Virus record (IMG/VR): IMGVR_UViG_3300042935_001404
Length of the DNA: 64,000 nt
DNA from: a virus
Taxonomy: Duplodnaviria > Caudoviricetes
Strand: one strand, 5' to 3'
The position numbers and the translations under genes were made by a program. The notes under the pieces were generated by a model. The model ran no database searches and was not told where the DNA came from. It was given only the letters and a program-made list of their open reading frames with translations. Positions 39,646 to 52,849 of this stretch are shown here, one piece after another. The stretch's first letter is position 1. Every line of letters starts with the position of its first letter.

Positions 39646-39778
39646 TAGTTTTTCCTTTAGATTAAATTAAAATCAACAGATTGTCGACTTTATCAACAGA
39701 CTGTCGATATAATATTTAGTCACGCAACATGATCCCTGACTTTTTGTCAACGAAATCCATCAAAAATAGAGGTTCTGC

Positions 39779-41098: not shown

Positions 41099-41121
41099 GC
41101 CATTGGATTTTGTCTTTGAAT

Positions 41122-41435
41122 AAAAGGTAATTTAATTCTGTTACGAGGATAAATTACCAAAAACCCTAGGCAGTGTTTAGACTGCCAATGCTTCCTTGGC
41201 TGTACGAGCAGAGAACTTGACGTTCTTACCAGAAACAGTTACGGTTTTGTTTACGTTTGCATTTACGTTTTTTGCTTGATTAACGGTCATCGCCTACCGT
41301 GCTGTCCACTTGTTTACTTGTTGCCCTGTCGAATCTAGTGCTCCCCCACCTAAATATACTGAATACATTTAGGTGGAGGAGGGGGGATTCGCACCCCCGT
41401 CCAAGACACTTTTCTCTTTGCTTCATACAGCAATA
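41122..41435 (-). ncRNA. ssrA: circularly permuted (two-piece) tmRNA
   Basis: acceptor piece ..GGACGGGGGTGCGAATCCCCC CTCCTCC A (ends ~41374) precedes coding piece GGGGGAG CACTAGATTCGAC (starts 41347); 7-bp acceptor stem with G3:U70; tag ORF 41260-41177. Confidence 0.9.
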
Positions 41436-41440
41436 ACTCT

Positions 41441-41448
41441 TATTTATA
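41441..41448 (-). promoter_or_regulatory. T4-like late promoter TATAAATA upstream of tmRNA
   Basis: exact octamer; also seen at 28204-28211, 35912-35919, 51055-51062 (-) and 44887-44894 (+). Confidence 0.55.
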
Positions 41449-41450
41449 AT

Positions 41451-41525
41451 TGGTTGCGGGGGAAGGACTCGAACCTCCGGCTTCCAGGTTATGAGCCTGG
41501 CGGTCTACCACTGACGTACCCCGCG
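41451..41525 (-). tRNA. tRNA-fMet(CAT), initiator type
   Basis: C1:A72 mismatch, CCAGG-CTCATAA-CCTGG, CCA. Confidence 0.88.
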
Positions 41526-41531
41526 ATAAAT

Positions 41532-41621
41532 TGGCGGAAGCGGTGAGATTCGAACTCACGAGGGACGTTGATCCCTGCTGGGTTAGTAATCCAGTGCCAT
41601 CGGCCACTCGGCCACGCTTCC
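41532..41621 (-). tRNA. tRNA-Ser(ACT), rare A34 anticodon
   Basis: long variable arm, G73, loop TT-ACT-AA, CCA. Confidence 0.85.
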
Positions 41622-41631
41622 TGCAGTTGTT

Positions 41632-41865
41632 TTATGGCAAAATTTCGCTAGATACCACACCAGGTTGTGTGGCCGCCCAGTTCGTATATTCAGTTGCTTT
41701 CTCAAGTGTGGGCCATGTTCTTTCCCATATTGTATCACCGTTTTCGAGAGTTGTAAATGTTGGGAACTCACCCACGCCGTTTGGCCATGCTAAAGATATA
41801 AGAACATCTCTTGCCTCATTTGTCAATGAGGTTCCTGCTTCCACAACTATTTTTGTTTTAATCAT
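41632..41865 (-). CDS. hypothetical protein
   Basis: ORF with SD AGGA. Confidence 0.6.
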   Translation of the reverse strand: MIKTKIVVEAGTSLTNEARDVLISLAWPNGVGEFPTFTTLENGDTIWERTWPTLEKATEYTNWAATQPGVVSSEILP

Positions 41866-41894
41866 AATATTTTCCTATAAAAAATCAAAGTATG

Positions 41895-42395
41895 CTAGAA
41901 TTTTTCATTAACTTTAGCACGATAACTAGCAGTTGATAACCCTTTAAATCGATCTGCCGCATAACTGGCAGCAAATGCATTGGGTTTAACTGATGGCGTC
42001 ACATTACATGTTCCTTTAATGTAGCCAACAGCCTGTGATATCACACAGCTCGACCCGTATTTATCGTCAGGATTGATATCTAAGTGCACCTCAACATGAC
42101 GATTTTCCAACACTTCGCCCAATTTCAAATACAGTTCAGATACTTTGTAAACTTCATTCATCAGGCGCATGCTTGGACGCGATGTTTTTTGATCAAAGTC
42201 CCGTTCGCGGTGTACTTCTCCAAACAGTTTGCAACCGTTGTTGCCGTTGATATGCACCACAATGGCCACCACGTAGTCAGCATACCAAACACCGTTTACA
42301 CGATGACGTTCTGAGTCACACCCAAGATAAATCTTAGTCTCAGGAGTTTGTTCTTCAATGAACCTTTTTACTTTAACAAGATTTATCTTTTCCAT
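41895..42395 (-). CDS. RNase H-like YkuK/DUF458 family protein
   Basis: IYLGCDSE, RLMNEVYK, EVHLDIN, FAASYAADR. Confidence 0.8.
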   Translation of the reverse strand: MEKINLVKVKRFIEEQTPETKIYLGCDSERHRVNGVWYADYVVAIVVHINGNNGCKLFGEVHRERDFDQKTSRPSMRLMNEVYKVSELYLKLGEVLENRHVEVHLDINPDDKYGSSCVISQAVGYIKGTCNVTPSVKPNAFAASYAADRFKGLSTASYRAKVNEKF

Positions 42396-42407
42396 AATAT
42401 TTTACCT

Positions 42408-42492
42408 TGGTGCGGATGGAGAGATTCGAACTCTCACGATTTTACTCGCTGGAACCTAAATCCAGTGCGGCTACCAATTACGCCACATCCGC
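42408..42492 (-). tRNA. tRNA-Leu(TAG)
   Basis: CTGGA-TTTAGGT-TCCAG, long variable arm, CCA. Confidence 0.93.
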
Positions 42493-42503
42493 ATTGTTTT
42501 TAT

Positions 42504-43439
42504 TTATTGACCGAGTTTTGTTGCAAATGATTCAAACATATGGTCCATGGTTTTGATATTTTGCAAATCTAATTTGTAGTCACCAGACTTGCTGACCAGA
42601 TGTTTTTGAACCAAGTCAGGCATGGCCAGTTTGATTGCTTGATTCAGATCCTTGACAACTTGATCTCGCACTTCTCGGGGAGTGTCTTTTCTTATAAAGA
42701 AACTGTATCCTGCCACTAAGTTTTGGTAATCAGAGAATCCGGGACTTGTTAAATTAGGCAAATCTGGAAAGTCAGTTGACTTTTTGTTGTCAAACACAAA
42801 CAGCGGTGTTAGTGTTCCGGCAGTGATGTGTTGATTAACATTGCCGTAGCTGATAACAGCAAAGTCAAGTTGATTGTTTAAAATATCTACAATCACCTGA
42901 GGTATACTTTTGTAGTTGACCAAAATTCCGTTGACTTTCATCTTGTCTATGGCTAATGATCCGTAAATGTGAAGAGGACTTCCTGTTATAGTGCTACCAT
43001 ATGTTAGTCCTTTTTGTTTGCCTAGTTCTGCCAGATCATTGAGATTCTTGATGTTTCTTTTGCTGTTGGTAACCAATACCCATTGTGGAGAATAGAAATG
43101 TGATACCGGTTCGAAATGCCGTTCGTAATCAAATCCTGTTGACGGTTTTGCACTGGCATAGGCAGTTGATGCGTAGAACAAAATTGTATGGCCATCGGCC
43201 GGGGCCGACAAGACATGTTGAGACGCTATGGCAGCGGCCCCACCTGGTTTGTTCATTACCACGACACCGGATTTCCAGATCCCGTCTAGTTTTTCTGCCA
43301 CAGTTCTTGTGATAAGATCAAGTCCACCGCCTGCTCCTGTGGGAACAATTAGTTGTACAGGTTTCTCAGGAAACGCTGATACAGAGACACTAACACTCAT
43401 AACAAGTGCGGTTAATAATGTTGATACAATTTTCTTCAC
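42504..43439 (-). CDS. Bug/TctC tripartite tricarboxylate transporter substrate-binding protein
   Basis: signal peptide; FPEKPVQLIVP..GGG.D..R, NKPGG.., ADGHT, YK. Confidence 0.9.
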   Translation of the reverse strand: MKKIVSTLLTALVMSVSVSVSAFPEKPVQLIVPTGAGGGLDLITRTVAEKLDGIWKSGVVVMNKPGGAAAIASQHVLSAPADGHTILFYASTAYASAKPSTGFDYERHFEPVSHFYSPQWVLVTNSKRNIKNLNDLAELGKQKGLTYGSTITGSPLHIYGSLAIDKMKVNGILVNYKSIPQVIVDILNNQLDFAVISYGNVNQHITAGTLTPLFVFDNKKSTDFPDLPNLTSPGFSDYQNLVAGYSFFIRKDTPREVRDQVVKDLNQAIKLAMPDLVQKHLVSKSGDYKLDLQNIKTMDHMFESFATKLGQ

Positions 43440-43460
43440 GGTTGCTTTCTTTAAAATTAA

Positions 43461-44594
43461 TCACGATCCAATGTCGTATTCCTTGCTCCAAATAAACGGC
43501 AAGTCATATAACATATTTTGCCGTTTAGTTCGAAATAGATTGTTATGCTTAAAATGATTTACTAGTGTTGTTTGGGTGTATAGATTATATACGCCTTTTA
43601 AGAAGTTTGCGGCCTCAGGTCGTCCAGATCTTAGATCTTCAACCAGAAATCTACTCTCCGGTGATGCTGTCTCGATGTCTTGCCAAGAACCGGTTAGATT
43701 TACATTTGAAATTCCTGCTAAACGTTCACTTAGCACTTTCTGCGATCGACTCACTCCATAGTTTAATTCCTGGTGTCGCCCGCAATCTAAACTCATTTGT
43801 TCAAATCCTTTGGTGGTTTTTTTATAATTGGCCTCGGCTAGCCCGCCATTGTGTAACTTTAGTTGATTTTGTTGAATGTACTTTTTAACATTGTTCTTGA
43901 ACACATGACTTTGTTTAACAGCCAGCACTGTATCTAAAAAGAACGCTTCGATATGTGGCCTATTAAACCCTTGATCTAAAACCATTGCCAGTTGTCTACT
44001 AAACCATCGACCGTTTCTATAAACAAGTCTGGGTTTTTCGTACCCTGTGATGCATTTGAAAGTGTGCCCGCTGTACTTTTGGTATACCGCATCTTCTGTT
44101 GTGGTAAATGGAAGATTAAAATATCTAACTAACTCTGTTCTCTTGCTATTAAAAATCCAGTCTTCGCTGTTGACAAATGGATTGTGTTTGTTAGGTGCTC
44201 GGGCATCCAGCAACGTTATTTCGGTATGCGGATCCCAGTGATTCTTTTTTACCCATTCATACGCACTGGTAGGGAACCATGCAAATTCTTCTGCGGCAGC
44301 AACAATTATCTCATCTAGGTGTATTTTATGTTTGGCAAACACATTGTAAATGGTTTGGCTGTCAAACCCACCACTGTAGTATAGCACTAATTTTTCGTAT
44401 TTGTTCCTGAGCTCAAAGGCTCGATACGCCATTAAATTATCAAATGAATCAGTTGATTCTGTAGTCCAGTCAACCTTATCGTATTGATCTTCGTTTAGAT
44501 AGAACTTGACTGGATGACCAGTTTCAGTAGAGTTTATCCAAGCAAGATATACATTGTTATAAGGTTGGTTGTTTACAGTGTAAAAAGCGTTCAT
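43461..44594 (-). CDS. PP-loop (SGGxDS) adenine-nucleotide alpha-hydrolase-like protein
   Basis: LYYSGGFDSQTI. Confidence 0.5.
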   Translation of the reverse strand: MNAFYTVNNQPYNNVYLAWINSTETGHPVKFYLNEDQYDKVDWTTESTDSFDNLMAYRAFELRNKYEKLVLYYSGGFDSQTIYNVFAKHKIHLDEIIVAAAEEFAWFPTSAYEWVKKNHWDPHTEITLLDARAPNKHNPFVNSEDWIFNSKRTELVRYFNLPFTTTEDAVYQKYSGHTFKCITGYEKPRLVYRNGRWFSRQLAMVLDQGFNRPHIEAFFLDTVLAVKQSHVFKNNVKKYIQQNQLKLHNGGLAEANYKKTTKGFEQMSLDCGRHQELNYGVSRSQKVLSERLAGISNVNLTGSWQDIETASPESRFLVEDLRSGRPEAANFLKGVYNLYTQTTLVNHFKHNNLFRTKRQNMLYDLPFIWSKEYDIGS

Positions 44595-44610
44595 TTATTT
44601 TTAATTAAAT

Positions 44611-44686
44611 TGGCTCCCCAACGTGGGCTCGAACCACGGACCAACAGATTAACAGTCTGCTACTCTACCGACTGAGCTATTGGGGA
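44611..44686 (-). tRNA. tRNA-Asn(GTT)
   Basis: cloverleaf, CTGTTAA loop, CCA. Confidence 0.94.
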
Positions 44687-44692
44687 ATACTC

Positions 44693-44848
44693 TTACTTGC
44701 GTTCTTTAGACGAGAATGATGCAGGTGTTGCCTGTGCGTCAATCATGGCTCTTTTAAATCCGTTGCGATCGTGTTGATCTTTAAACTTTAACAATGCCAT
44801 CAATGTTTTTGTTCGTTTGCTGAGTTTAAATGTAGATGTTGTTTTCAT
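44693..44848 (-). CDS. 51-aa basic small protein MKTTSTFKLSKRTKTLMALL..
   Basis: hand-translated; SD AAGGA upstream. Confidence 0.6.
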   Translation of the reverse strand: MKTTSTFKLSKRTKTLMALLKFKDQHDRNGFKRAMIDAQATPASFSSKERK

Positions 44849-44899
44849 TTGTTTCCTTTGGGGTATTTATTTGGGTTAAATTGCGATATAAATATCTGT

Positions 44900-45085
44900 A
44901 TGCAAACGCAAACACAAGATTTTATTTCAGTTAGTGGACATCTACAAGTGCATCTGTCACTCAGTGAGTATAACACATCTTATATTTTTGTCAATGATAT
45001 TTTCAATGATCGGCTAATTATGCGTTACTTTGGTGATCATGAATCTGCAGTCAACTGGATCAAGACTCTTAAAGACCACTATTGA
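44900..45085 (+). CDS. hypothetical protein antisense to tRNA operon
   Basis: TATAAATA at 44887-44894 directly upstream of ATG. Confidence 0.55.
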   Translation: MQTQTQDFISVSGHLQVHLSLSEYNTSYIFVNDIFNDRLIMRYFGDHESAVNWIKTLKDHY

Positions 45086-45093
45086 TCACATGC

Positions 45094-45169
45094 TGGGGAG
45101 AAGTATGGGAATTGAACCCATATTAACGGAATCACAATCCGTGGTGTTGACCTTTACACTAACTACTCC
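45094..45169 (-). tRNA. tRNA-His(GTG)
   Basis: G-1:C73, ACGGA-TTGTGAT-TCCGT. Confidence 0.92.
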
Positions 45170-45173
45170 GTGT

Positions 45174-45248
45174 TGGTCTCGCTTGCAAGAATCGAACTCA
45201 CATTCAAGAGGTAGAAGCTCTTTGTATTATCCATTATACTAAAGCGAG
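45174..45248 (-). tRNA. tRNA-Arg(TCT)
   Basis: AAGAG-CTTCTAC-CTCTT, CCA. Confidence 0.9.
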
Positions 45249-45250
45249 AA

Positions 45251-45328
45251 TGGCAGAGGGTACTGGATTCGAACCAGTGATCATGGAGTCAAAGTCCAAT
45301 GCTTTAGGCCAAACTAAGCTAACCCCCA
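45251..45328 (-). tRNA. tRNA-Gln(TTG)
   Basis: loop CTTTGAC, G73, CCA. Confidence 0.9.
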
Positions 45329-45339
45329 GTAATAATTGT

Positions 45340-45413
45340 TGGAGCGGGATAGGAGAATCGAACTCCTGACTAAACCTTGGCAAGGTTTCGTTTGACCATT
45401 AAACTAATCCCGC
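45340..45413 (-). tRNA. tRNA-Gly(GCC)
   Basis: AAACC-TTGCCAA-GGTTT, U73, CCA. Confidence 0.93.
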
Positions 45414-45416
45414 ATG

Positions 45417-45491
45417 TGGTGGTGATGAGTAGAGTCGAACTACCACCGGACTCCGTATGAAGGAGGCGCACTACCGTTATGCTACATCACC
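45417..45491 (-). tRNA. tRNA-CAT (elongator Met or Ile2, not resolved)
   Basis: fully paired acceptor GGTGATG, loop TTCATAC, CCA. Confidence 0.85.
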
Positions 45492-45493
45492 GA

Positions 45494-46228
45494 TCAGTCG
45501 AAGTAGTATTCGAGATCAGAGAGACCGACCACGTTAGAATAATCTAAGCCGTGTATGTAAGACTCGCGACGCAAGTCATTTCCGGGCACCAAGTCTCGGC
45601 GAATGTGTGTCAGTTCCATACATCCAAAAACGCCATCAGTGTCATAGCTCACGTGATTGTTGCCGTGTACGTGTACAATGGCATAGTGCTCTTGCCACCG
45701 CTCCACAGCCTGGTGCCATTGTTTGCTACGATTGGCACAGTTGTGCCATTCCATTGCAACGCCTACAATGCGATCGCGATGTTGTACGATGCTTTCAATC
45801 AAACTGTATTCACCACCTTCGATGTCCATCTTGATGAACACCTGGTCTACGCCCATTCTGTCTAGGGCCCGAACAAAATTTTCTGGCCCAATAAACTCTG
45901 GCCAATGTTTTACGTTATCTTGAAAGAATTCATCGTACATGGCTCGAATATCCAAGTGTCCACGAACCGGCGTATTGATGCTGATACGCATGGTATCTCT
46001 AGTGACACTGGCATCATACATCTGAATCGGATCTGTAGGTTTGAGATTATGCCAGTCTTGATCAAATGTAAAATCGTCACCTAGTCCAAAACTTAACAGA
46101 CCCTGTGCTTGGTCCACTGCTGAACGTGGCAAAATGTAGCCGCCGTCCATTTTTCCACCTAATCTAATTAGGTCAGGCACTGCAACAGGGCAGAGCCAAT
46201 GTAGTTCTTGGGGTAGTTTAATTTTCAT
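45494..46228 (-). CDS. FkbM-like SAM-dependent methyltransferase
   Basis: RLGGKMDGGY, SFGLGDDFTF, FIKMDIEGGE. Confidence 0.7.
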   Translation of the reverse strand: MKIKLPQELHWLCPVAVPDLIRLGGKMDGGYILPRSAVDQAQGLLSFGLGDDFTFDQDWHNLKPTDPIQMYDASVTRDTMRISINTPVRGHLDIRAMYDEFFQDNVKHWPEFIGPENFVRALDRMGVDQVFIKMDIEGGEYSLIESIVQHRDRIVGVAMEWHNCANRSKQWHQAVERWQEHYAIVHVHGNNHVSYDTDGVFGCMELTHIRRDLVPGNDLRRESYIHGLDYSNVVGLSDLEYYFD

Positions 46229-46346
46229 AATTTTATTTATTAACTGGTTTTACACACCATATAAAAGCACACTATATGCGCCCTGGTTGTTAAGCGCCAC
46301 TAACAGCCTGCAACCACGCAGGGTAGCCGTGTAATGTGCTTTTATA

Positions 46347-46420
46347 TGGTAGGGGTGCAGGGGAACGATCCCTGTTTTACGGATTAAAAGTCCGTTACTT
46401 CACCTTAAAGTTTCACCCCC
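46347..46420 (-). tRNA. tRNA-Lys(TTT)
   Basis: ACGGA-CTTTTAA-TCCGT; atypical T-loop ATCGTTC; CCA. Confidence 0.88.
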
Positions 46421-46543
46421 TAATGGGCTTTGTTTTTGTGCTCGACGCAGAGCCTTGTTGCTCTTACGATGCGAACCTGCTTTGCGGAACAGTGCAAGAC
46501 GAACGAAGCAGTTACGTTCGCGCACGATCGATTTACGTTTCAT
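46400..46543 (-). CDS. 47-aa highly basic small protein whose stop codon lies inside tRNA-Lys (ArfA/BrfA-like candidate)
   Basis: SD AAGGA; MKRKSIVRERNCFVRLALFRKAGSHRKSNKALRRAQKQSPL then GGETLR* from tRNA sequence. Confidence 0.6.
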   Translation of the reverse strand: MKRKSIVRERNCFVRLALFRKAGSHRKSNKALRRAQKQSPLGGETLR

Positions 46544-46562
46544 ACAGTTTCCTTTTATAAAA

Positions 46563-46638
46563 TGGTGGAGGATAACGGATTCGAACCGTTTGCTCCTGGT
46601 TGCAAACCAGGTGTGTTAGCCAAGTATACCAATCCCCC
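46563..46638 (-). tRNA. tRNA-Ala(TGC)
   Basis: G3:U70, CCTGG-TTTGCAA-CCAGG, CCA. Confidence 0.93.
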
Positions 46639-46639
46639 A

Positions 46640-46875
46640 ATATGCTCTGCATCCCCCGGCGGTAATTATAGAGTATCAACATAGATTAATCCGGAATCTA
46701 ACTCAACTAAGGTTAGCGATTCTATGCATCACACACTCCTTCCACCCGCTTCCCGACAGGGACCGTTATCGCATTGCTAGCGGCCTTTTGGTAAGAAGAC
46801 TACCACCCTTGAGTAACGAACTCACTTCTCTCGTACGGGTCATACTAGCCAGGCGTTACCCCGACGGGTTCTTCT
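46640..46875 (-). ncRNA. unidentified multi-helix structured RNA
   Basis: nested helices incl. GAGTGT/ATACTC, GCATAGA/TCTATGT, GGTGG/TTACC, CCTGGC/GCCGGG with G.U pairs on minus strand; no ORF in track. Confidence 0.55.
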
Positions 46876-46907
46876 CTCAAATAAGCATAAGCATAGTATT
46901 CTTTCAT
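46845..46907 (-). pseudogene. N-terminal remnant resembling a GIY-YIG (Seg-like) homing endonuclease
   Basis: MKEYYAYAYLREE then 7 unrelated residues and stop. Confidence 0.45.
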
Positions 46908-46923
46908 ACCTTGACGAGAATCT

Positions 46924-47685
46924 TTACAACCTAGATTCTATCATAGGAGCAATAAAATCAGCAATCTGAATATGAGCTTTTTCTGTAGGATGATGTGATA
47001 TTGGATTTAACAATCCAATATCAACTAAAAACGCTACTCTATTGGAGTCTACAACCCAATTTGAATAATGATAGTTGTTATCAACATTTTTCATGTTATT
47101 TCTCAAACACAATTGTGACATTAAATCTCTATCAGGTATATCAATCATATTGTCGATGGGTTGATGATACAGATGATGATTAAATGTATCAACCCATATA
47201 TTTTTGACCCCCATTGACTTATAAAAAACATTCCAAAAATTCATCTCAACTTCTAATTGTTGTACTTCGTGATTATGATCATATGAATGTTTAACCATAA
47301 ACTCGCTAAATTTATTTGGCATATTATATTTGCAATGTAACACAGACATTGTGTCTAAATCAAAAAATACATTTCGAGCAGTTGATGTGATTGCATGCAA
47401 TACAATAATTTTATCATATGTTTCTTGATCACATTTGAAATCAATTTTACTAAAATATCTTTTAGCATAATTAAATTGAGCTTGATTACTGCTTCCACCA
47501 TGTGCAAAATTTTTGTTATCTAATGCAAAATTTTTAGACAAAACACCACGAAATGATTTTGTCCCACAAATGTCTGAATTCCATGCAATAGAATTATACA
47601 CAGCAGTGGATTGCTCAATTTGATATCCTACACCAACTCCATAGGTCCAACTGCACCCAAACGTGATAAGCAAATTTTTATTCAT
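46924..47685 (-). CDS. SGNH/GDSL-hydrolase-like protein
   Basis: FGCSWTYG, NFAHGGSSN, SHHPTE. Confidence 0.55.
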   Translation of the reverse strand: MNKNLLITFGCSWTYGVGVGYQIEQSTAVYNSIAWNSDICGTKSFRGVLSKNFALDNKNFAHGGSSNQAQFNYAKRYFSKIDFKCDQETYDKIIVLHAITSTARNVFFDLDTMSVLHCKYNMPNKFSEFMVKHSYDHNHEVQQLEVEMNFWNVFYKSMGVKNIWVDTFNHHLYHQPIDNMIDIPDRDLMSQLCLRNNMKNVDNNYHYSNWVVDSNRVAFLVDIGLLNPISHHPTEKAHIQIADFIAPMIESRL

Positions 47686-48334
47686 GTTTTTGTAGTACCA
47701 TTCTTAATGTTCCCTCGGCCATGTTAGATCCAATATGAGTATCATCAAGTTCAAAACACAAAATCTCATCTCTAAAAATTTCAATTTGATCACGTATGTA
47801 TGTTGATGCAGTATTTTTTATTTCTGTAGTCTCTGCACCTATCATATGACACACATTCATCATGATAAAAATTTTACCACCTGGTTTGGTCATTTGTAAG
47901 ACTTGATTGATCCTGTTAGAAAATTGCGACAATGGAATAAAATGCAAAGCATTCATACTCATGATATTTTCAAATTTTTCTGTATTTTCCTTGACAAACG
48001 CATCATCTACAAACCCAACCTGGTCAGCATAAAAATTTAATGATTTTGAATCAATGCCGATTATGTTTGGAATATATTTTTTATATATGTTCCACCCACA
48101 TCCAATATCATAAATTTTAGAGCTTGATGCTAATTGTAAAATATAGTAAAAAGGAACCATTGAAAATATTCTTTTGCCACGATATTCGCGCGGCGTCATT
48201 CCCATAAAGCCCAAAGTTGGTATATTAGTTTCCCAAGTCAACAAATCAAAATCTTGTTTTACGTTACGTGCCAAATCAGTTGATTCAAAGCTTTTTCGAA
48301 AATTTTCTAAGTTATATGCGTTTAAATTGTTCAT
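47678..48334 (-). CDS. class I SAM-dependent methyltransferase-like protein
   Basis: IYDIGCG, IGIDS, SMNALHF, KPGG. Confidence 0.7.
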   Translation of the reverse strand: MNNLNAYNLENFRKSFESTDLARNVKQDFDLLTWETNIPTLGFMGMTPREYRGKRIFSMVPFYYILQLASSSKIYDIGCGWNIYKKYIPNIIGIDSKSLNFYADQVGFVDDAFVKENTEKFENIMSMNALHFIPLSQFSNRINQVLQMTKPGGKIFIMMNVCHMIGAETTEIKNTASTYIRDQIEIFRDEILCFELDDTHIGSNMAEGTLRMVLQKHE

Positions 48335-48353
48335 ACATTATATATGATAGATA

Positions 48354-48438
48354 TGGTGGAGATGATAGGGATCGAACCTATTGTGACCGAAGTCGGAAGA
48401 TTTACAGTCTCCTGCCATACCATTACGGCGGCATCTCC
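48354..48438 (-). tRNA. tRNA-Tyr(GTA)
   Basis: long variable arm, CTGTAAA loop, CCA. Confidence 0.93.
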
Positions 48439-48443
48439 ATGTC

Positions 48444-48518
48444 TGGTACTCGATAGCGGAGTCGAACCGCTCTTGCCTGGATGAAAACCAGATGTCCTAA
48501 CCGATAGACGAATCGAGC
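48444..48518 (-). tRNA. tRNA-Glu(TTC)
   Basis: TCTGG-TTTTCAT-CCAGG, CCA. Confidence 0.92.
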
Positions 48519-48597
48519 AAAAAGAGGAGAGCCACGGTTGCAGGACCTAGTGTCTCGTTGCCGAGAGAAGTGTCCAGGCGATGTGGCTCTCAAAACT

Positions 48598-48672
48598 TGG
48601 CGGTCTGTGGGGGAATCGAACCCCCGTAAGTGGATAGACAATCCACAGTAATAACCTCTATACGAACAGACC
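48598..48672 (-). tRNA. tRNA-Asp(GTC)
   Basis: GTGGA-TTGTCTA-TCCAC, G73, CCA. Confidence 0.92.
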
Positions 48673-48680
48673 AAAATCTA

Positions 48681-48895
48681 CTATTTTAAAACATACTAAA
48701 GGAACCATTGTGCATCTATGTCTACCTATAGGACCGTCTCCTATAGACCTGCACGGTCATTACTGCCTACATGCTCCGCCGCTTTTCTGGACATTTCTGC
48801 CCGGTTTCATGGACCTAGCTTGAGCGTGGGCGGCCCCACAGTCCTCGCCTTAGATCCCTAACGGTGTAGGTAACCTTTAATACGTTTTAAAATAG
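48681..48895 (-). ncRNA. unidentified 215-nt structured RNA with 22-bp closing stem
   Basis: 48895-48874 pairs 48702-48681 (two G.U on minus strand); inner hairpins GTGGG/CCCAC, GGGCA-GAAA-TGTCC, CTATAGGA/TCCTATAG. Confidence 0.6.
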
Positions 48896-48926
48896 CAACC
48901 CTTACGGGTTACCAAAAACAACAACT

Positions 48927-48959
48927 TTTTAAAGAACGTCTAGTTAATTTCCTAACTAG
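48927..48959 (-). promoter_or_regulatory. rrn-type boxB-boxA antitermination signal
   Basis: CTAGTTAG-GAAA-TTAACTAG hairpin followed by CGTTCTTTAAAA. Confidence 0.65.
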
Positions 48960-48964
48960 TCTCT

Positions 48965-48993
48965 AGTATAACACAATGGCTATATCTAGTCAA
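48965..48993 (-). promoter_or_regulatory. sigma70 promoter TTGACT-17-TATACT
   Basis: consensus boxes, TG upstream of -10. Confidence 0.8.
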
Positions 48994-49062
48994 TTTGTTT
49001 TGCAAAGTCCCTACACTGTGTAGGGTTATTTGCAGATCCAGCTAATTTCTTAACTTGTTTCT

Positions 49063-49091
49063 ATTGTAGCAAAATGGCGTTTAATTGTCAA
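49063..49091 (-). promoter_or_regulatory. sigma70 promoter TTGACA-17-TACAAT (tandem upstream)
   Basis: consensus boxes. Confidence 0.8.
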
Positions 49092-49132
49092 CTTAGTACT
49101 TTAGTATACCCTACGCACTGTAGGGTTATTAT

Positions 49133-49206
49133 TGGCGTACCTCCAAGGACTCGAACCTTGACTGACGGTTTTGGAGACCGCGGTGCTGCCATTACACCAG
49201 AGATAC
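49133..49206 (-). tRNA. tRNA-Trp(CCA)
   Basis: GCGGT-CTCCAAA-ACCGT, G73, CCA. Confidence 0.92.
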
Positions 49207-49213
49207 ATTAAAT

Positions 49214-49287
49214 TGGTAGCCTGTCAAGGTAACGATCCTTGGTCGCTCGATTATCAGTCGAGTGCTCTACCTTTGAGCTAACGGGCT
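49214..49287 (-). tRNA. tRNA-Ile(GAT)
   Basis: CTCGA-CTGATAA-TCGAG; atypical T-loop ATCGTTA. Confidence 0.88.
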
Positions 49288-49292
49288 ATGAT

Positions 49293-49367
49293 TGGCGGGT
49301 CCTGCAGGAATCGAACCCACACCGCTTGGTTCGAAGCCAAGCATGATATCCATTTCACCAAGGACCC
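49293..49367 (-). tRNA. tRNA-Arg(TCG)
   Basis: CTTGG-CTTCGAA-CCAAG, CCA. Confidence 0.92.
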
Positions 49368-49372
49368 TTAAC

Positions 49373-49462
49373 TGGCGGTGCGACTCGGATTCGAACCGAG
49401 AACCCGGATTACGCCGAGCGACAGATTAGCAATCTGCTCTAATACCATTATAGGACCACACC
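49373..49462 (-). tRNA. tRNA-Ser(GCT)
   Basis: long variable arm, TTGCTAA loop, G73. Confidence 0.92.
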
Positions 49463-49468
49463 GTTGTT

Positions 49469-49560
49469 TGGCGGAAGACGGAGGAGTCGAACCCCATCCC
49501 TGTTAAGAGAACCTGGTTTTCAAGGCCAGTCGCAGGACCGGTCCCGCTGCATCATCTTCC
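49469..49560 (-). tRNA. tRNA-Ser(TGA) with 8/4 acceptor/T-stem architecture
   Basis: acceptor GGAAGATG/CGTCTTCC (8 bp), T-stem GGGG/CCTC (4 bp), loop CTTGAAA, G73. Confidence 0.82.
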
Positions 49561-49569
49561 TAAAATGTG

Positions 49570-50331
49570 TTAAAGATTTTTAAAAACTTTTTTTATAATT
49601 GCACTGCGATCCAGTTTGGAACTGGCACCCAGCACAATGACTGCGTACTGTTGTTTGTTGTGTTCTACCAGCATGGCCACACACCATCCAGCAAGATTAG
49701 TAAATCCAGTCTTGCTCACGTCCACACGGGTAAACTCTGCCAACAGTGGACGGGATGTGTGAACCAGGTTCACAGAGCTGCCGCCTATTTTGTCAAGTTT
49801 TTTCAACAGCACAGTTGACTGCCCACTGGCTTCTTGTATAAACCAATAGTTGGCAGCAATCTGTACCATTTCTATTAGATCCCGTGCAGTGGACACATTG
49901 AACACACCCAGGCCTGACGGATCTACAAATTTAGTATTTCGAAGATTCCACATCCGGGCATGTCGATTCATTTCAGCTACAAAGGCAGATCGGCCTCCGG
50001 GGTAGTTCTGTGCAATGGTTTCGGCTGCTCCGTTGTCACTGCTGACCAGCATGGCCAGCAACAACTGTTCTCTGGTGTACCTGCCGGGCGGCAATCGACT
50101 GCCGGTGTTTTTTCTCAGCACCAACTGCTGTTGAAGATCTCTGTTGTGATCCAATGCAACCATGGCAGTCATCAACTTGGTCACACTGGCCATTGATCTG
50201 ATTTGATCACTATTTTGACTCAGTTCCGTGCGCTGTGCATTGATGTTGTAGACCAACACTGTGGGCTCACGTGCGTGGGCCGTTGCATTGGATAAAACTG
50301 TACAAAAAAGTACTGCGGCAAATAATTTCAT
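49570..50331 (-). CDS. D-alanyl-D-alanine carboxypeptidase/endopeptidase (peptidase S11)
   Basis: signal peptide; ASVTKLMTA (SxxK), SDN, KTG. Confidence 0.92.
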   Translation of the reverse strand: MKLFAAVLFCTVLSNATAHAREPTVLVYNINAQRTELSQNSDQIRSMASVTKLMTAMVALDHNRDLQQQLVLRKNTGSRLPPGRYTREQLLLAMLVSSDNGAAETIAQNYPGGRSAFVAEMNRHARMWNLRNTKFVDPSGLGVFNVSTARDLIEMVQIAANYWFIQEASGQSTVLLKKLDKIGGSSVNLVHTSRPLLAEFTRVDVSKTGFTNLAGWCVAMLVEHNKQQYAVIVLGASSKLDRSAIIKKVFKNL

Positions 50332-50349
50332 ATCTTTATTTTGTAAAAT

Positions 50350-50424
50350 TGGAACACAGGACAGGACTCAAACCTGCATGATACGGATTTGCAATCCGTT
50401 GCGTAATCATTCCGCCACCTGTGC
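50350..50424 (-). tRNA. tRNA-Cys(GCA)
   Basis: ACGGA-TTGCAAA-TCCGT, U73, CCA; atypical D/T loops. Confidence 0.85.
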
Positions 50425-50575
50425 ATATACGTCGAACACACTGTTTCCAATGTGTGTATTAAAGCACTCTAAAATACTTAGGCTGCCTGTTCTTAAAGAA
50501 TGCTTTAATACGAACTAATTTTTCCTCCCACACAAGGGATTCCATCCTAGTCGCCGCCCGTTCGTGCTTGTTTAT

Positions 50576-50605
50576 AGTGTAGCACAGGACCTCGTTTCCT
50601 GTCAA
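50576..50605 (-). promoter_or_regulatory. possible sigma70 promoter TTGACA-18-TACACT
   Basis: boxes upstream of tRNA-Cys. Confidence 0.5.
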
Positions 50606-50616
50606 CACTTTAGGAT

Positions 50617-50778
50617 TTATGTCCAAAGTTGATTCTTGACTCGCATGCGAGTTTCGAGTTCCAACCTAGCACGTTCCAACTTTTCCCGAATCAACTTTTC
50701 ACGTTGTTCCGGTGTCAGTGTGTGCTCTGTTGTGTACTTTACTTCACGCATTCGTTGTTTTAAATCTAATTTCTTCAT
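50617..50778 (-). CDS. 53-aa charged small protein MKKLDLKQRMREVKYTTEHTL..
   Basis: hand-translated; SD AAGGA just after terminator. Confidence 0.6.
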   Translation of the reverse strand: MKKLDLKQRMREVKYTTEHTLTPEQREKLIREKLERARLELETRMRVKNQLWT

Positions 50779-50790
50779 TTTTCCTTTTCT

Positions 50791-50828
50791 AAAAACAAAA
50801 AACCCTAGGGTTTTTAATCCTAGGGTCC
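50791..50828 (-). terminator. intrinsic terminator (attenuator-type)
   Basis: ACCCTAGG/CCTAGGGT stem followed by TTTTTGTTTTT. Confidence 0.8.
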
Positions 50829-50853
50829 TTGGAGTTTGTGTGTAAACTTTTAT

Positions 50854-50994
50854 TTACGACATGGTCTCCTGGACCCTGGTACCCTCTGGTGTGCGATCAT
50901 ATGACATGCTATTGATTGCCGACCAAATAGAGGGCGCGAAGCCGGCCTGTTTGGCTAAACAATTTGATATAGAATGTAATACGTTTGTTTGCAT
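50854..50994 (-). CDS. 46-aa putative leader peptide MQTNVLHSIS..SYDRTPEGTRVQETMS
   Basis: between promoter and terminator; contains anti-terminator strand AGGGTCC. Confidence 0.55.
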   Translation of the reverse strand: MQTNVLHSISNCLAKQAGFAPSIWSAINSMSYDRTPEGTRVQETMS

Positions 50995-51042
50995 TTTTGT
51001 TTCTTTAAATTTATATACACCTTTTTATTGGCGCATGTGTGT

Positions 51043-51071
51043 ATTGTATAGGTTTATTTATACAAGGTCAA
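51043..51071 (-). promoter_or_regulatory. sigma70 promoter TTGACC-17-TACAAT with nested TATAAATA
   Basis: boxes and late motif at 51055-51062. Confidence 0.7.
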
Positions 51072-51129
51072 CCACTTGGTTGTTCAAAATGCAAATTTTT
51101 TTCAAGATATTTGCCTTAATAAGTACACT

Positions 51130-52224
51130 ATGCAACAAGCATTCAACGGAGTACACAGCGGCGAGATTTGGAATCAAAGCCAATGTCTAGTACACGAATA
51201 CAACATCAATAACACAATATATCAAACACTACGCGATACCGGGTTTAGTGTAACTGACAATCCACGGATATGGAAAAAATCAAACCAAACAGTGATCGTT
51301 TGCCTGGTTGACGATATACGAAGTTGTAGTACAGACTATCACAGTGACTTGCCCTACTTGTTTGATGCCAATACCACAGTCATAACCGACAACTATATCA
51401 CTTGTCCCACGCAGTACCATGTGATAAGATTGCCCGCTAGTTTCTTGGGAATCTATCACTATGTGCCCAGCAACCAAACATGGCAGCCAGAACGAGATTT
51501 TTCTTTTGCAGTAAATCGAATTGACCAACGCAGATTTATGCTGATGTTGGAAATCGGACTCAGAGTACATTTGCACAAAGGCCATGTAAATTTCAACTGT
51601 TATCGTCCAGGAAATTCCGTAGTGTCAGACCCTGCTCTTATTTCCACAACCCGGGCATTAGAACATTGGAATAACCATTGGAACCAGACCAGCAACGAAG
51701 ACAAATCAAAATATCAAAAAAGTTATGAATTGCTAACAGCACAAATGCCTGTGCGCAATTATGAAATAGAACATGATGAAATTTTTAATCGGTCATATGT
51801 TAACATTGTGGCCGAAACCTACAGCAGTGACAACAACATATCACTGAGTGAAAAAATATTCAGAGCATTGGTAACACCTGCTCCGTGGACCGTATCGTCG
51901 GGTCGATACACAGTGGCCTATTTAACTAGCTTGGGATTTGATACTGTGTCAGATCTAATAGACCACAACCATTACGATAGACTAATAGAAGTGCAAGAGA
52001 AGCAACGCATATTTGTATGGAAAAGCCTTGAAACTATTAAATCATTGAAGTCTCAAGATCTAACTCTGCTACAAGACAGATGTCAACGTGCTGCCACACA
52101 CAATCAAACTGTATTGGCCGCAATGGCTGCTCGGTGGCCCAATGATTTTGCTCAGTGGATCAGCATACTTACACAAACGCTAACCAATCCACAGGCGATC
52201 GAACCCATTCAGTGTCAAATTTAA
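51130..52224 (+). CDS. putative glycosyltransferase-like protein (ET..SEK family)
   Basis: NIVAETYS..LSEKIFRAL..PW..GFDT. Confidence 0.45.
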   Translation: MQQAFNGVHSGEIWNQSQCLVHEYNINNTIYQTLRDTGFSVTDNPRIWKKSNQTVIVCLVDDIRSCSTDYHSDLPYLFDANTTVITDNYITCPTQYHVIRLPASFLGIYHYVPSNQTWQPERDFSFAVNRIDQRRFMLMLEIGLRVHLHKGHVNFNCYRPGNSVVSDPALISTTRALEHWNNHWNQTSNEDKSKYQKSYELLTAQMPVRNYEIEHDEIFNRSYVNIVAETYSSDNNISLSEKIFRALVTPAPWTVSSGRYTVAYLTSLGFDTVSDLIDHNHYDRLIEVQEKQRIFVWKSLETIKSLKSQDLTLLQDRCQRAATHNQTVLAAMAARWPNDFAQWISILTQTLTNPQAIEPIQCQI

Positions 52225-52822
52225 AATTCTTAACTTGACCGTCAAGATAATTTTGCATCATTGTCAATCTAAGATCAATGTTATGTAGATGATGTGTAGT
52301 GCTGTGATCGCCAATTTCCAGCCAATCAAGTCCATGGTCGGCACCAGGCTGGGAAGGTGTAACTAATATTGTTGTATGGTTAGTATCAAACTTGATCAAT
52401 CTTATCAAGTCTTGATCGTTGTTAATTTGCTGCCAAGTGTTGTATTGTACAGCGTTCGATGCTGTGCATGTTATAACAACACTGACTGTGGATATTTTGG
52501 GATTTAGTTGCAGTGTCATCAGTCGTGTGTCGCCACAATCAACTATGTACTGTTCATGTTGTTGGTGTATCAACAAGGGCTTTCGTATGGGCTCTTTGTG
52601 TAAATTTTGATAAAAATAGTTGACCCGCAGTAATTTTGCAATTTCGTTTTGCAGTCCTGCTGGCCAAGACAACAAATCAGTGCCATACAAATCTAATGCT
52701 TGATTTACCACAGAACAAGATCCTTCGAGTGTCTGTACCGGAGTTAGTTGTGCAATGGGAAATGCTGGATGGTAAAACATGCAGTATGTTGACCCAAGTG
52801 CTGTTTTTATTATATCTGTCAT
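52169..52822 (-). CDS. hypothetical protein
   Basis: start refined to MTDIIK; TAAATA upstream. Confidence 0.6.
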   Translation of the reverse strand: MTDIIKTALGSTYCMFYHPAFPIAQLTPVQTLEGSCSVVNQALDLYGTDLLSWPAGLQNEIAKLLRVNYFYQNLHKEPIRKPLLIHQQHEQYIVDCGDTRLMTLQLNPKISTVSVVITCTASNAVQYNTWQQINNDQDLIRLIKFDTNHTTILVTPSQPGADHGLDWLEIGDHSTTHHLHNIDLRLTMMQNYLDGQVKNFKFDTEWVRSPVDWLAFV

Positions 52823-52849
52823 ATTGGTATTTACTTGTAAATATAAACA

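What the first reader, a model, noticed from the sequence alone, without database searches (positions are those of the whole stretch)
46640..46875. Unnamed ~235-nt multi-branched RNA directly upstream of tRNA-Ala
Seen (minus strand): GC-rich stretch with no ORF in the track. It contains hairpins TGAG/CTCA, GGTAG/TTACC, CCTGT/GCGGG, a long stem GAGTGT..GCATAGA / TCTATGT..ATACTC, and closing helices GGTGG/TTACC and CCTGGC/GCCGGG. G.U pairs favour the minus strand. Established: T4-like tRNA regions carry stable non-tRNA RNAs, and GOLLD/ROOL RNAs occur beside phage tRNAs. Identity unknown.
Basis: partly seen in the sequence, partly recalled or inferred. Interest (0 to 1): 0.7.

Follow-up and report, generated by a model that had tools for sequence, protein, structure and literature searches.

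The report
New knotted RNA in phage tRNA array
The flagged stretch is a real, highly expressed, intricately knotted non-coding RNA of about 235 bases, from an uncatalogued family that more than a hundred uncultured freshwater phages carry among their tRNA genes; what it does is not yet known.

Summary
The RNA is real: window 46639-46873, minus strand, one copy (own covariance model, 169 bits, E 3e-51). No Rfam 15 family matches, even at E up to 10. Relatives occur in over 117 IMG/VR contigs, including complete 175-525 kb phages, and in about 85 more metagenome contigs. No true relative was found in 185,579 bacterial species genomes or in GenBank phages.

Two alignments show 98% of cells paired (33-49% when partners are slid), with 31 and 36 of 48 pairs showing compensatory changes. 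The fold has five hairpins, two pseudoknots, a covarying H1-H3 loop-loop contact, and a long arm closed by a long-range helix.

In 55 of 98 distinct contexts the RNA starts 0-2 nt after a tRNA's encoded CCA. In 35 a tRNA starts 2-10 nt after its end, as here. Freshwater metatranscriptome contigs cover the core at word depths of 3,000-25,000, too deep to be DNA carry-over.

Best reading: a stable RNA cut out of the tRNA-operon transcript that acts in trans as a folded particle, target unknown. Rivals: a self-cleaving ribozyme that sets tRNA 3' ends, or a GOLLD/ROOL-like RNA-only multimer. This scan found the same family earlier on other DNA.

The parts
46639..46873 (-). The whole non-coding RNA (235 nt here; 177-285 nt in relatives, mode 205)
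   Evidence: cmsearch with own model R1: 169.1 bits, E 3.4e-51, the only hit in the window. Identity with the nearest complete phage (L110/G002) begins exactly at the 5' AGAAC.
46866..46873 (-). Conserved single-stranded 5' tail (family consensus AGAACGU; here AAGAACCC). In relatives it directly follows a tRNA CCA end.
   Evidence: Nearly invariant columns in A2. No covarying partner was found. 58 of 98 contexts have CCA 0-3 nt upstream.
46848..46865 (-). Hairpin H1 (GUCGGG/CCUGGC) with loop GUAACG. The loop pairs with the H3 loop (contact K1, AACG:CGUU).
   Evidence: All 5 pairs show compensatory changes, 98-99.6% paired.
46833..46845 (-). Hairpin H2 with loop GACCC. The loop bases ACCC form pseudoknot PK1 with GGGU at 46805-46808.
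   Evidence: H2: 3-4 of 4 pairs compensatory. PK1 variants: ACCG:CGGU in L176 and GUCC:GGAC in L170/L246.
46825..46832 (-). Conserved purine-rich joiner J2/3 (family GAUGAGAAG; here GAGAGAAG)
   Evidence: Nearly invariant in 89 and 100 sequences. Unpaired in the model.
46810..46824 (-). Hairpin H3 (UGAGU/ACUCA) with loop UCGUU, the partner of the H1 loop
   Evidence: 3-4 of 5 pairs compensatory. The loop covaries with the H1 loop.
46802..46808 (-). GGGUGGU, the shared strand of both pseudoknots (GGGU with the H2 loop, GGU with the H4 loop)
   Evidence: Invariant in main-type members. It changes together with both loops in L176 and L170/L246.
46783..46800 (-). Hairpin H4 (GUCUU/AAGGC) with an 8-nt loop that holds the invariant ACC (PK2)
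   Evidence: 4 of 5 pairs compensatory; 99.3% paired in A2 and 97.8% in A4.
46770..46782 (-). Hairpin H5 (CGC/GCG) with conserved loop UAGCAAU
   Evidence: C-G to U-A compensatory change in 4-5 sequences; 100% paired.
46651..46763 (-). The 3' arm. Long-range helix P_A (46758-46763 with 46651-46656), bulge GU, P_C (46754-46755 with 46657-46658), bulge GGAA, P_B (46746-46749 with 46659-46662), conserved internal loop GUGGAA / AUAAUUA (46740-46745 and 46663-46669), and the variable hairpin H7 (46670-46739).
   Evidence: P_A: 6 of 6 pairs compensatory. P_B: C-G changes to A-U and to U-A. H7 base: 6-7 of 7 pairs compensatory. H7 ranges from 5 bp plus a GCAA loop to more than 100 nt.
46639..46650 (-). 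Conserved 3' tail (GCAGAGCAUAUU). It ends on the base before tRNA-Ala +1.
   Evidence: The AGC is invariant. In 35 of 98 contexts a tRNA begins 2-10 nt after AGAGCA, mode 4.
46563..46638 (-). tRNA-Ala(UGC). Its 5' processing site would set the RNA's 3' end.
   Evidence: ARAGORN and Rfam tRNA, 54.5 bits.

Best explanation
This is the gene for a stable, non-coding "passenger" RNA of the phage tRNA operon. It belongs to a large family that is in no RNA catalogue.

Shown:
- It is conserved in several hundred freshwater phage and metagenome contigs. Four of five complete giant-phage genomes carry one copy; the fifth carries two.
- It sits in the tRNA array like one more tRNA unit.
- It folds into a compact 5' domain of five hairpins. 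The loops of four of them take part in two pseudoknots and one loop-loop contact.
- It also has a long, irregular 3' arm closed by a long-range helix.
- Its core is extremely abundant in lake and river RNA libraries.

Inferred:
- It is transcribed as part of the long minus-strand tRNA precursor. In this window that would run tRNA-Tyr, two inserted ORFs, the RNA, tRNA-Ala, a small ORF, then tRNA-Lys.
- Its 3' end is made by RNase P cutting at tRNA-Ala +1.
- In most relatives its 5' end is made by whatever matures the upstream tRNA's CCA end.
- The released RNA of about 205-235 nt resists decay because of its knotted fold.
- It works in trans as a folded particle that binds a conserved host or phage component. 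The near-invariant unpaired stretches (AGAACGU, GAUGAGAAG, AGAACG, GUGGAA/AUAAUUA, GCAGAGCA) would form the working surface.

The target is unknown.
For: - Homologs: an exact 19-mer occurs in 50 IMG/VR contigs. A 5'-half pattern occurs in more than 117. A third pattern occurs in at least 120 metagenome stretches, about 85 of them real.
- Copy number: complete 175-525 kb phage genomes hold 1-2 copies.
- Structure: 98.0% and 98.1% of cells paired, against 33-49% for slid controls. 31 and 36 of 48 pairs show compensatory changes. 0 of 500 shuffles reach the observed values.
- Pseudoknots and the loop-loop contact covary in divergent members.
- Array context: 87 of 98 contexts have a tRNA within 300 nt. 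55 have a tRNA 3' end within -2 to +4 nt of the start, from 11 isotypes. 35 have a tRNA start 2-10 nt after the end.
- No promoter-like or terminator-like site lies next to the RNA in the window.
- Expression: in four RNA runs the core bins reach word depths of 37-59 (X23), about 3,900 (X19), 7,600 (X21) and 25,400 (X20). The neighbouring ORF has depth 0 and tRNA-Ala about 5-200. A depth of 25,400 over genomes of at least 175 kb would need about 4 Gb of DNA reads, yet run X20 holds 0.48 Gb.
- No known family matches.
Against: - The RNA ends are not measured. Only assembled contigs of the RNA runs could be laid, and these cannot show starts, ends or strand.
- Part of the depth contrast arises because the core is shared by many phages while the flanks are not.
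- No partner protein or RNA is identified. Neighbouring genes vary (metallophosphoesterase, an RNA polymerase omega-like protein, HNH and others) and may only reflect shared ancestry.
- The exact abutment to CCA, with no spacer, is not explained by ordinary bacterial 3'-end trimming. That fact favours the ribozyme rival.
- The single sequence is not unusually stable.
Confidence: 0.55

Rival explanations
1. It is a large self-cleaving ribozyme that cuts at its own 5' edge. This would free the upstream tRNA's 3' end from the array transcript, the role proposed for the HDV-like theta ribozymes of gut phages. Here the RNA would belong to a new, much larger class with a doubly pseudoknotted core and a stabilising peripheral arm, comparable in layout to glmS.
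For: - In 55 of 98 contexts, involving 11 tRNA isotypes, the RNA begins 0-2 nt after the tRNA end. 58 of 98 have CCA within 3 nt.
- A highly structured trailer with no spacer would block exonucleolytic trimming, which calls for a precise endonucleolytic cut.
- About 100 nt are near-invariant, with conserved unpaired purine-rich joiners around two pseudoknots. This is typical of catalytic cores.
- Precedent: theta ribozymes lie within +/-5 nt of tRNA 3' ends in phages (PMC10879173).
- A calcineurin-type phosphoesterase is the commonest neighbour, in 47 loci. Such an enzyme could remove a cyclic phosphate. This last link is my inference.
Against: - No Rfam ribozyme family matches, even at E up to 10.
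- The 5'-terminal bases have no covarying partner, so there is no HDV-type P1 helix.
- 43 of 98 contexts, this window included, have no abutting upstream tRNA.
- Self-cleavage would leave a 2',3'-cyclic phosphate on an already complete CCA end and block charging. Theta-associated tRNAs mostly lack CCA; only 4.5% encode it.
- Spacers of 2-10 nt are normal between all units of this array, so close abutment is not special.
Confidence: 0.15
2. It is a building block of an RNA-only homo-oligomer (a ring or cage), a small counterpart of GOLLD and ROOL or of the phi29 packaging RNA. The covarying H1-H3 loop-loop pairing would form between molecules rather than within one.
For: - The H1 and H3 loops are complementary and covary in at least four forms: GUC:GAC, AUCA:UGAU, AACG:CGUU (this window), and UCAU:AUGA, extending to 6 bp in L246.
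- In ROOL, a covarying kissing loop first read as an intramolecular tertiary contact proved to be intermolecular (PMC12286853).
- The setting and abundance match those of GOLLD and ROOL. GOLLD lies 120 nt from this RNA in L041 and in the same array in L145.
Against: - H1 and H3 are only about 25 nt apart, with H2 between them, so an intramolecular contact is at least as plausible.
- The RNA is three to four times smaller than ROOL or GOLLD.
- One subgroup has identical, non-complementary GUAGCA loops on both hairpins.
- No structural or biophysical data exist.
Confidence: 0.15
3. It is a cis-acting or DNA-level element: a riboswitch or leader for the downstream gene, or an embedded promoter. 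The conserved 3' internal-loop strand reads TATAAT.
For: - The loop strand is UAUAAU. Its variants keep the TAnnnT pattern (TACAAT, TATAGT, TAAATT), and its first U is paired at the end of a helix.
- In several relatives an ORF with a ribosome-binding site starts 20-30 nt downstream.
Against: - What lies downstream is heterogeneous: tRNAs of 11 isotypes, another small RNA, or unrelated ORFs. There is no common regulated gene and no expression platform.
- No -35 element sits at a fixed distance, because H7 varies from about 14 nt to more than 100 nt.
- The promoter scan finds nothing there in the window.
- The bases on both sides of the loop covary as RNA helices with partners up to about 100 nt upstream.
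- The loop also fits a common RNA structural motif, UAA/GAN (from my own knowledge).
Confidence: 0.04
4. It is a very divergent member of a known universal RNA, such as RNase P RNA, 6S RNA, SRP RNA, a tmRNA piece, a group I intron or a Y RNA.
For: Phages of this kind do carry copies of cellular translation RNAs: 24 tRNAs and a permuted tmRNA in this window, and group I introns in L100.
Against: - cmscan against all 4,227 Rfam families at E up to 10, with permissive filters, gives nothing on the element. The same library readily finds tmRNA, GOLLD and group I introns nearby.
- The fold derived here has no RNase P P4/CR-I-V pattern, no 6S-type central bubble and no tRNA-like end (by inspection).
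- There is no true match in one genome each of 185,579 bacterial and archaeal species. The 10 exact 19-mer hits are chance matches in unrelated, mostly high-GC sequence.
Confidence: 0.03

Closest known systems
GOLLD (Rfam RF02032) and ROOL (RF03087), the large ornate RNAs of phages and prophages
   Same: All are encoded by phages at or in tRNA islands, have elaborate pseudoknotted folds with covarying loop-loop contacts, are very abundant, and have no known protein partner or function. GOLLD occurs in the same arrays as this RNA (L041, L145).
   Different: There is no sequence or model similarity. This RNA is 205-235 nt, against roughly 600-800 nt. Its architecture differs: a five-hairpin knotted 5' domain plus one long arm. 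Its oligomeric state is unknown.
Phage T4 stable RNAs species 1 and 2 (rnaC, rnaD) in the T4 tRNA gene cluster (from my own knowledge)
   Same: They are non-tRNA stable RNAs encoded inside a phage tRNA cluster, released from the tRNA precursor transcript, and of unknown function.
   Different: They are shorter, about 120-140 nt. blastn of this region against GenBank phages finds only tRNA matches and none to T4. No shared structure is known.
HDV-like theta ribozymes of gut phages (PMC10879173)
   Same: They sit with their 5' edge within a few nt of a phage tRNA 3' end and are proposed to process tRNA 3' trailers.
   Different: Theta ribozymes are minimal HDV folds, and their tRNAs mostly lack CCA. 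Here there is no HDV-type P1 helix and no Rfam match, the RNA is about three times larger, the tRNAs encode CCA, and self-cleavage has not been tested.
phi29 packaging RNA (pRNA)
   Same: It is a phage RNA of about 120-174 nt whose two loops covary and pair, in pRNA between molecules to form a ring (from my own knowledge; cited in PMC12286853).
   Different: There is no model match. The genomic setting and fold differ. Nothing links this RNA to packaging.

Membership tests
GOLLD RNA (RF02032) | Scores at or above the family's covariance-model threshold | tested here: not met
   No hit on the element at the gathering score or at E up to 10. The same model scores 210-213 bits on true GOLLD in L041 and L145.
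GOLLD / ROOL kind (ornate phage RNAs) | Phage-encoded, at tRNA islands, with an extensive covariation-supported pseudoknotted structure | tested here: met
   87 of 98 contexts have a tRNA within 300 nt. 36 of 48 pairs are compensatory, with two pseudoknots and a loop-loop contact.
GOLLD / ROOL kind (ornate phage RNAs) | Assembles into an RNA-only multimeric cage | not testable with these tools
   This needs native gels or cryo-EM. The covarying H1-H3 loops are compatible with it but do not show it.
ROOL RNA (RF03087) | Scores with the family's covariance model | tested here: not met
   No hit at E up to 10.
HDV-like / theta ribozymes | Nested double pseudoknot whose P1 helix is formed by the first nucleotides after the cleavage site | tested here: not met
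   The 5'-terminal AGAACGU has no covarying partner. The pseudoknots involve the H2 and H4 loops instead. No Rfam HDV-type hit.
HDV-like / theta ribozymes | 5' edge within +/-5 nt of a tRNA 3' end | tested here: met
   Met in 55 of 98 contexts, but not in this window, where two ORFs lie between tRNA-Tyr and the RNA.
HDV-like / theta ribozymes | Self-scission in vitro | not testable with these tools
   A bench assay is needed.
RNase P RNA, 6S RNA, SRP RNA, tmRNA, group I intron, Y RNA, pRNA | Match to the Rfam model of the family | tested here: not met
   cmscan of 46400-47100 against 4,227 families at E up to 10 finds only tRNA-Ala and chance-level hits outside the element.
tRNA / tRNA-like | Cloverleaf with an acceptor stem formed by the two ends | tested here: not met
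   ARAGORN and the Rfam tRNA model do not call it. The 5' and 3' tails show no covarying pairing.
T4 rnaC / rnaD-type stable RNAs | Non-tRNA RNA gene inside a phage tRNA cluster, on the same strand and without its own promoter or terminator | tested here: met
   The window has 24 tRNAs plus a tmRNA on the minus strand. No promoter-like or terminator-like site lies next to the element.
T4 rnaC / rnaD-type stable RNAs | Sequence relationship to the T4 RNAs | tested here: not met
   blastn (word size 11) against 50,697 GenBank phage records matches only the tRNA part.

The most novel reading that the evidence does not exclude
The RNA is the first member of a new class of large self-cleaving ribozyme, roughly the size of glmS. 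It would cut exactly at the tRNA CCA / RNA junction, so that giant freshwater phages mature their own tRNA 3' ends without host nucleases. The excised ribozyme would be what accumulates to very high levels in lake RNA.
Probability: 0.12. Interest if true: 0.9.

Novelty: new variant of a known kind. Interest (0 to 1): 0.68.

Why it matters
Few bacterial or phage RNA classes of this size combine near-invariant cores, multiple pseudoknots and very high abundance. Those that do have usually turned out to be ribozymes, parts of the translation apparatus or, recently, RNA-only cages.

This family is widespread in lake phages, including complete 175-525 kb genomes. It is among the most abundant phage-derived sequences in the four freshwater RNA libraries examined. 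It sits beside tRNAs, a phage tmRNA, a putative ribosome-rescue peptide and, in relatives, GOLLD.

It offers a small, tractable model of about 205 nt, with a minimal natural variant of 177 nt, for asking what the "ornate" RNAs of phage tRNA islands do. The fold given here is defined well enough to design self-cleavage, oligomerisation and pull-down experiments directly.

Tried and rejected
- Thermodynamic test: the minus strand does not fold better than shuffles (z = +0.49) and neither does the plus strand (z = -0.64). This is uninformative.
- GenBank phages: blastn of the region gave only tRNA hits.
- Own assembly: it is not held. Relatives cannot be drawn for a virus record.
- Genome-contig scan with the 19-mer: 10 hits, all chance matches in unrelated, mostly high-GC sequence.
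- Helices I considered and dropped:
  - the 3' mini-hairpin AUGC/GCAU, broken by U-to-C variants;
  - pairing of the 5' CGU(U) with the AACG joiner, not kept in L010, L141 or the subgroup that lacks ACG;
  - pairing between the 5' and 3' tails, which shows no covariation.
- My slip: the structure I gave to build_rna_model had the 5' strand of H4 one column too far 5'. As a result R1 and the structure stored with A4 show H4 only 40% paired. With the right register H4 is 97.8-99.3% paired. Detection was not affected.
- The model-based alignment A4 misplaces the pseudoknot strand of L170/L246 by one column. Their compensatory changes were therefore read from the sequences themselves.
- Neighbour-gene clustering gave no consistent partner.
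- Literature: four full-text searches, including exact core sequences, found no description of this RNA. The supplements of the 10,006-candidate virus RNA catalogue are not held, so I could not check whether the motif is listed there.
- Read laying: only assembled contigs were available, so no ends, strand or per-gene ranking could be obtained.
- The second conserved small RNA that follows this one in many relatives is absent from the window.

Full report
**What is there.** The window is a piece of a large phage genome. Its minus strand carries 24 tRNA genes and a circularly permuted tmRNA between about 35.4 and 50.4 kb. The flagged stretch lies between the stop codon of a 253-codon ORF (46924-47685) and tRNA-Ala(UGC) (46563-46638). 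It has no conserved ORF. Its G+C is 0.47-0.55, against 0.25-0.33 in the ORFs just upstream. No Rfam 15 family matches it, either at the curated thresholds or at E up to 10 with permissive filters. A single-sequence fold is no more stable than shuffled controls on either strand, so thermodynamics alone says nothing.

**Homologs.**
- The nearest held virus record (G001) has a 75%-identical copy between tRNA-Tyr and tRNA-Ala. The 3' half of the element is more conserved there than the tRNA-Ala next to it.
- An exact 19-mer from the core occurs in 50 IMG/VR contigs.
- A third pattern that avoids all the pseudoknot motifs finds at least 120 metagenome stretches, about 85 of them real.
- Five complete or near-complete phage genomes of 175-525 kb hold one copy each, except one with two.
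- The closest relative of the window's copy lies in a 346,856-bp genome with terminal repeats (L110/G002).
- The same 19-mer in one genome for each of 185,579 prokaryotic species gave only ten chance hits in unrelated, mostly high-GC sequence.
- GenBank phages gave only tRNA hits.
- All 24 listed sequencing runs that hold the stretch are freshwater, lake or river samples. Eighteen DNA runs from 18 coded studies hold at least 66% of its words.

**Structure.** I aligned 89 distinct IMG/VR copies with MAFFT (A2) and tested a hand-derived structure on it. 98.0% of cells form standard pairs, against 38-46% when partners are slid by 1-3 columns. 31 of 48 pairs show compensatory changes, and no shuffle out of 500 reaches the observed values. 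I then made a second, largely independent alignment of 100 copies: 86 from the metagenome scan, 13 IMG/VR copies and the window's own, fitted to my covariance model (A4). With the corrected structure it gives 98.1% paired, against 33-49% when slid, and 36 of 48 compensatory pairs.

The fold, 5' to 3', is:
1. a conserved unpaired tail, AGAACGU;
2. hairpin H1;
3. hairpin H2, with loop GACCC;
4. a conserved joiner, GAUGAGAAG;
5. hairpin H3;
6. the strand GGGUGGU;
7. hairpin H4, with an 8-nt loop that holds an invariant ACC;
8. hairpin H5, with loop UAGCAAU;
9. the joiner AGAACG;
10. a long arm made of the long-range helix P_A, a GU bulge, the 2-bp P_C, a GGAA-type bulge, P_B, a conserved asymmetric internal loop (GUGGAA opposite AUAAUUA) and the variable hairpin H7;
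11. the conserved tail GCAGAGCAU.

H7 ranges from 5 bp capped by GCAA to more than 100 nt. The window's H7 carries a 28-nt apical insert that it shares with otherwise different family members.

**Pseudoknots and loop-loop contact.** In main-type members, GGGU and the H2 loop ACCC, and GGU and the H4 loop ACC, never vary. Divergent members settle the question.
- L176 (207 bits) has ACCG with CGGU.
- L170 and L246 (110 and 118 bits) have GUCC with GGAC.
- In those same two RNAs, GGU:ACC becomes CU(U):(U)AG, so two of the three pairs are compensated.
- The H1 and H3 loops are complementary and change together: GUC:GAC in about 57 sequences, AUCA:UGAU in about 20, AACG:CGUU in the window's subgroup, and UCAU:AUGA in L170, extending to 6 bp in L246. 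A small subgroup with GUAGCA on both loops is an exception.

So the loops of four of the five hairpins in the 5' domain (H1-H4) take part in higher-order pairing.

Three of the six are replaced. CCUGGC is the 3' strand of H1, not a closing helix. CCUGU/GCGGG and GGUGG/UUACC give way to P_A, P_C and P_B.

**Context and processing.** Among 98 distinct genomic contexts, 87 have a tRNA within 300 nt. In 55, covering 11 isotypes, a tRNA 3' end lies -2 to +4 nt from the RNA's first base, with a mode of 0. 58 have an encoded CCA within 3 nt upstream. In 35, a tRNA starts 2-10 nt after AGAGCA, with a mode of 4. The window's tRNA-Ala follows that pattern.

In L110 the RNA lies flush between tRNA-Tyr and tRNA-Ala. 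In the window, two low-GC ORFs (46924-47685 and 47678-48334; no Pfam match) have been inserted between tRNA-Tyr (48354-48438) and the RNA. Similarity to L110 resumes exactly at the RNA's 5' AGAAC, which independently marks the 5' boundary. No sigma70-like promoter or intrinsic terminator lies next to the element. Co-transcription with the array is therefore the simplest reading, and RNase P cleavage at tRNA-Ala +1 would set the 3' end. Both of these points are inferences.

**Expression.** I laid four freshwater metatranscriptome runs, from at least three studies and held as assembled contigs, on 46400-47100. Contigs on the conserved core (46736-46807) sum to word depths of about 3,900, 25,400, 7,600 and 59. 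The inserted ORF beyond 46928 has none, and tRNA-Ala has about 5-200.

Contig depths cannot rank genes strictly, and the core collects reads from many related phages. However, a depth of 25,400 on genomes of at least 175 kb would need more than 4 Gb of DNA reads, and that run holds 0.48 Gb. The signal must therefore be RNA, strongly enriched over the rest of the genome. Ends and strand could not be read from contigs.

**What it is likely to do.** The data show a compact, very stable-looking, highly expressed RNA that behaves genomically like one more unit of the tRNA array. My best-supported reading (0.55) is a passenger RNA excised by the tRNA-processing machinery that acts in trans as a folded particle on a conserved but unknown target.

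Two more specific mechanisms remain open.
- A self-cleaving ribozyme acting at its own 5' edge (0.15). The zero-spacer junction with CCA, the catalytic-core-like conservation and the precedent of the tRNA-adjacent theta ribozymes (PMC10879173) favour it. Against it: there is no P1-type helix and no ribozyme-model hit, many copies (this one included) have no upstream tRNA, and a cyclic phosphate would be left on a finished CCA end.
- An RNA-only oligomer built through the H1-H3 loops (0.15). ROOL offers a precedent: a covarying "tertiary" kissing loop there proved to be intermolecular (PMC12286853). GOLLD also sits in the same arrays (L041, L145).

A cis-regulatory or promoter role, and membership of a known universal RNA family, are unlikely (0.04 and 0.03).

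**Comparison and novelty.** In setting and style the RNA belongs with GOLLD and ROOL and with the T4 species 1 and 2 RNAs. It fails every sequence or model test for membership in any of them. Four full-text searches, including exact core strings, found no description of it. A published catalogue of 10,006 candidate viral RNA structures (PMC10690425) could not be checked, because its supplements are not held.

Earlier notes of this scan had already flagged the same family on other genomes and reached the same "new family, function unknown" verdict. My analysis agrees with that verdict. It adds a corrected and more complete fold (P_A, P_C and P_B, both pseudoknots, and the loop-loop contact, each with compensatory evidence), context statistics and expression evidence.

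**Caveat on my own work.** The structure string I used to build model R1 had one helix (H4) shifted by a column. This lowered the stored-structure count on A4 and was corrected. It does not affect detection or the conclusions.

Noticed in passing
window 41086-41463 (-): A circularly permuted, two-piece tmRNA gene (Rfam tmRNA_permuted 129.9 bits; also beta_tmRNA 96.5 bits), overlapping a tRNA-Met call. The betaproteobacterial type hints at the host group.
   Followed up: no
window 46400-46543 (-): A 47-codon, very basic ORF starts 20 nt after tRNA-Ala and runs into tRNA-Lys. It is conserved in G001/L001 and L110.
   Followed up: no
window 46924-48334 (-): Two overlapping low-GC ORFs (about 30% G+C; 253 and 218 aa; no Pfam match) are inserted between tRNA-Tyr and the RNA. 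In L110/G002 those two genes abut. This looks like a recently acquired cassette whose 3' junction is exactly the RNA's 5' end.
   Followed up: partly
L003:~290-372 (-), and at least 25 other loci: A second conserved small RNA of about 85 nt, with an 11-bp AU-rich closing stem (GAAGCAUAUUGA...UCAAUAUGCUUU) and a U-run, directly follows this RNA in many relatives. It is absent from the window. It may belong to the "shared closing stem" modules noted earlier in this scan.
   Followed up: partly
L041:8986-9452 (-); L145:7640-8102 (+); L100:4552-4748 and 5921-6130 (-): True GOLLD RNAs (210-213 bits) and group I introns lie in the same tRNA arrays as this RNA in related phages. In L041 GOLLD ends 120 nt upstream of it.
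   Followed up: no
L010:869-1096 (-); L020:4603-5199 (+): Among 159 loci searched (many from near-identical phages), the commonest neighbours are a calcineurin-type metallophosphoesterase (47 loci) and a 76-aa RNA polymerase omega (Rpb6/RpoZ)-like protein (37 loci). Neither was found in window 39001-54000.
   Followed up: partly
window 46663-46670 (-): The 3' strand of the conserved internal loop reads UAUAAU. Family variants keep TAnnnT (UACAAU, UAUAGU, UAAAUU). Its first U is the last pair (G.U) of H7, the geometry of a promoter -10 fork junction. This may be coincidence, and it also fits a UAA/GAN-type structural loop.
   Followed up: partly
window 46682-46728 (-), inside H7: The apical part of H7, including a 28-nt insert, is identical in the window and in L045, L097, L098 and L113, whose H7 bases or 5' domains differ. 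L110, the window's closest relative elsewhere, has a different H7. This suggests that hairpin tops are exchanged as modules.
   Followed up: no
window 41898-42395 (-); 49573-50331 (-); 1925-3310, 7033-8427, 12632-14143 (+): Auxiliary genes around the array: an RNase H-like DUF458 protein, a D-Ala-D-Ala carboxypeptidase (Peptidase_S11), two weak radical SAM matches below Pfam's cutoff, and a carbamoyltransferase.
   Followed up: no
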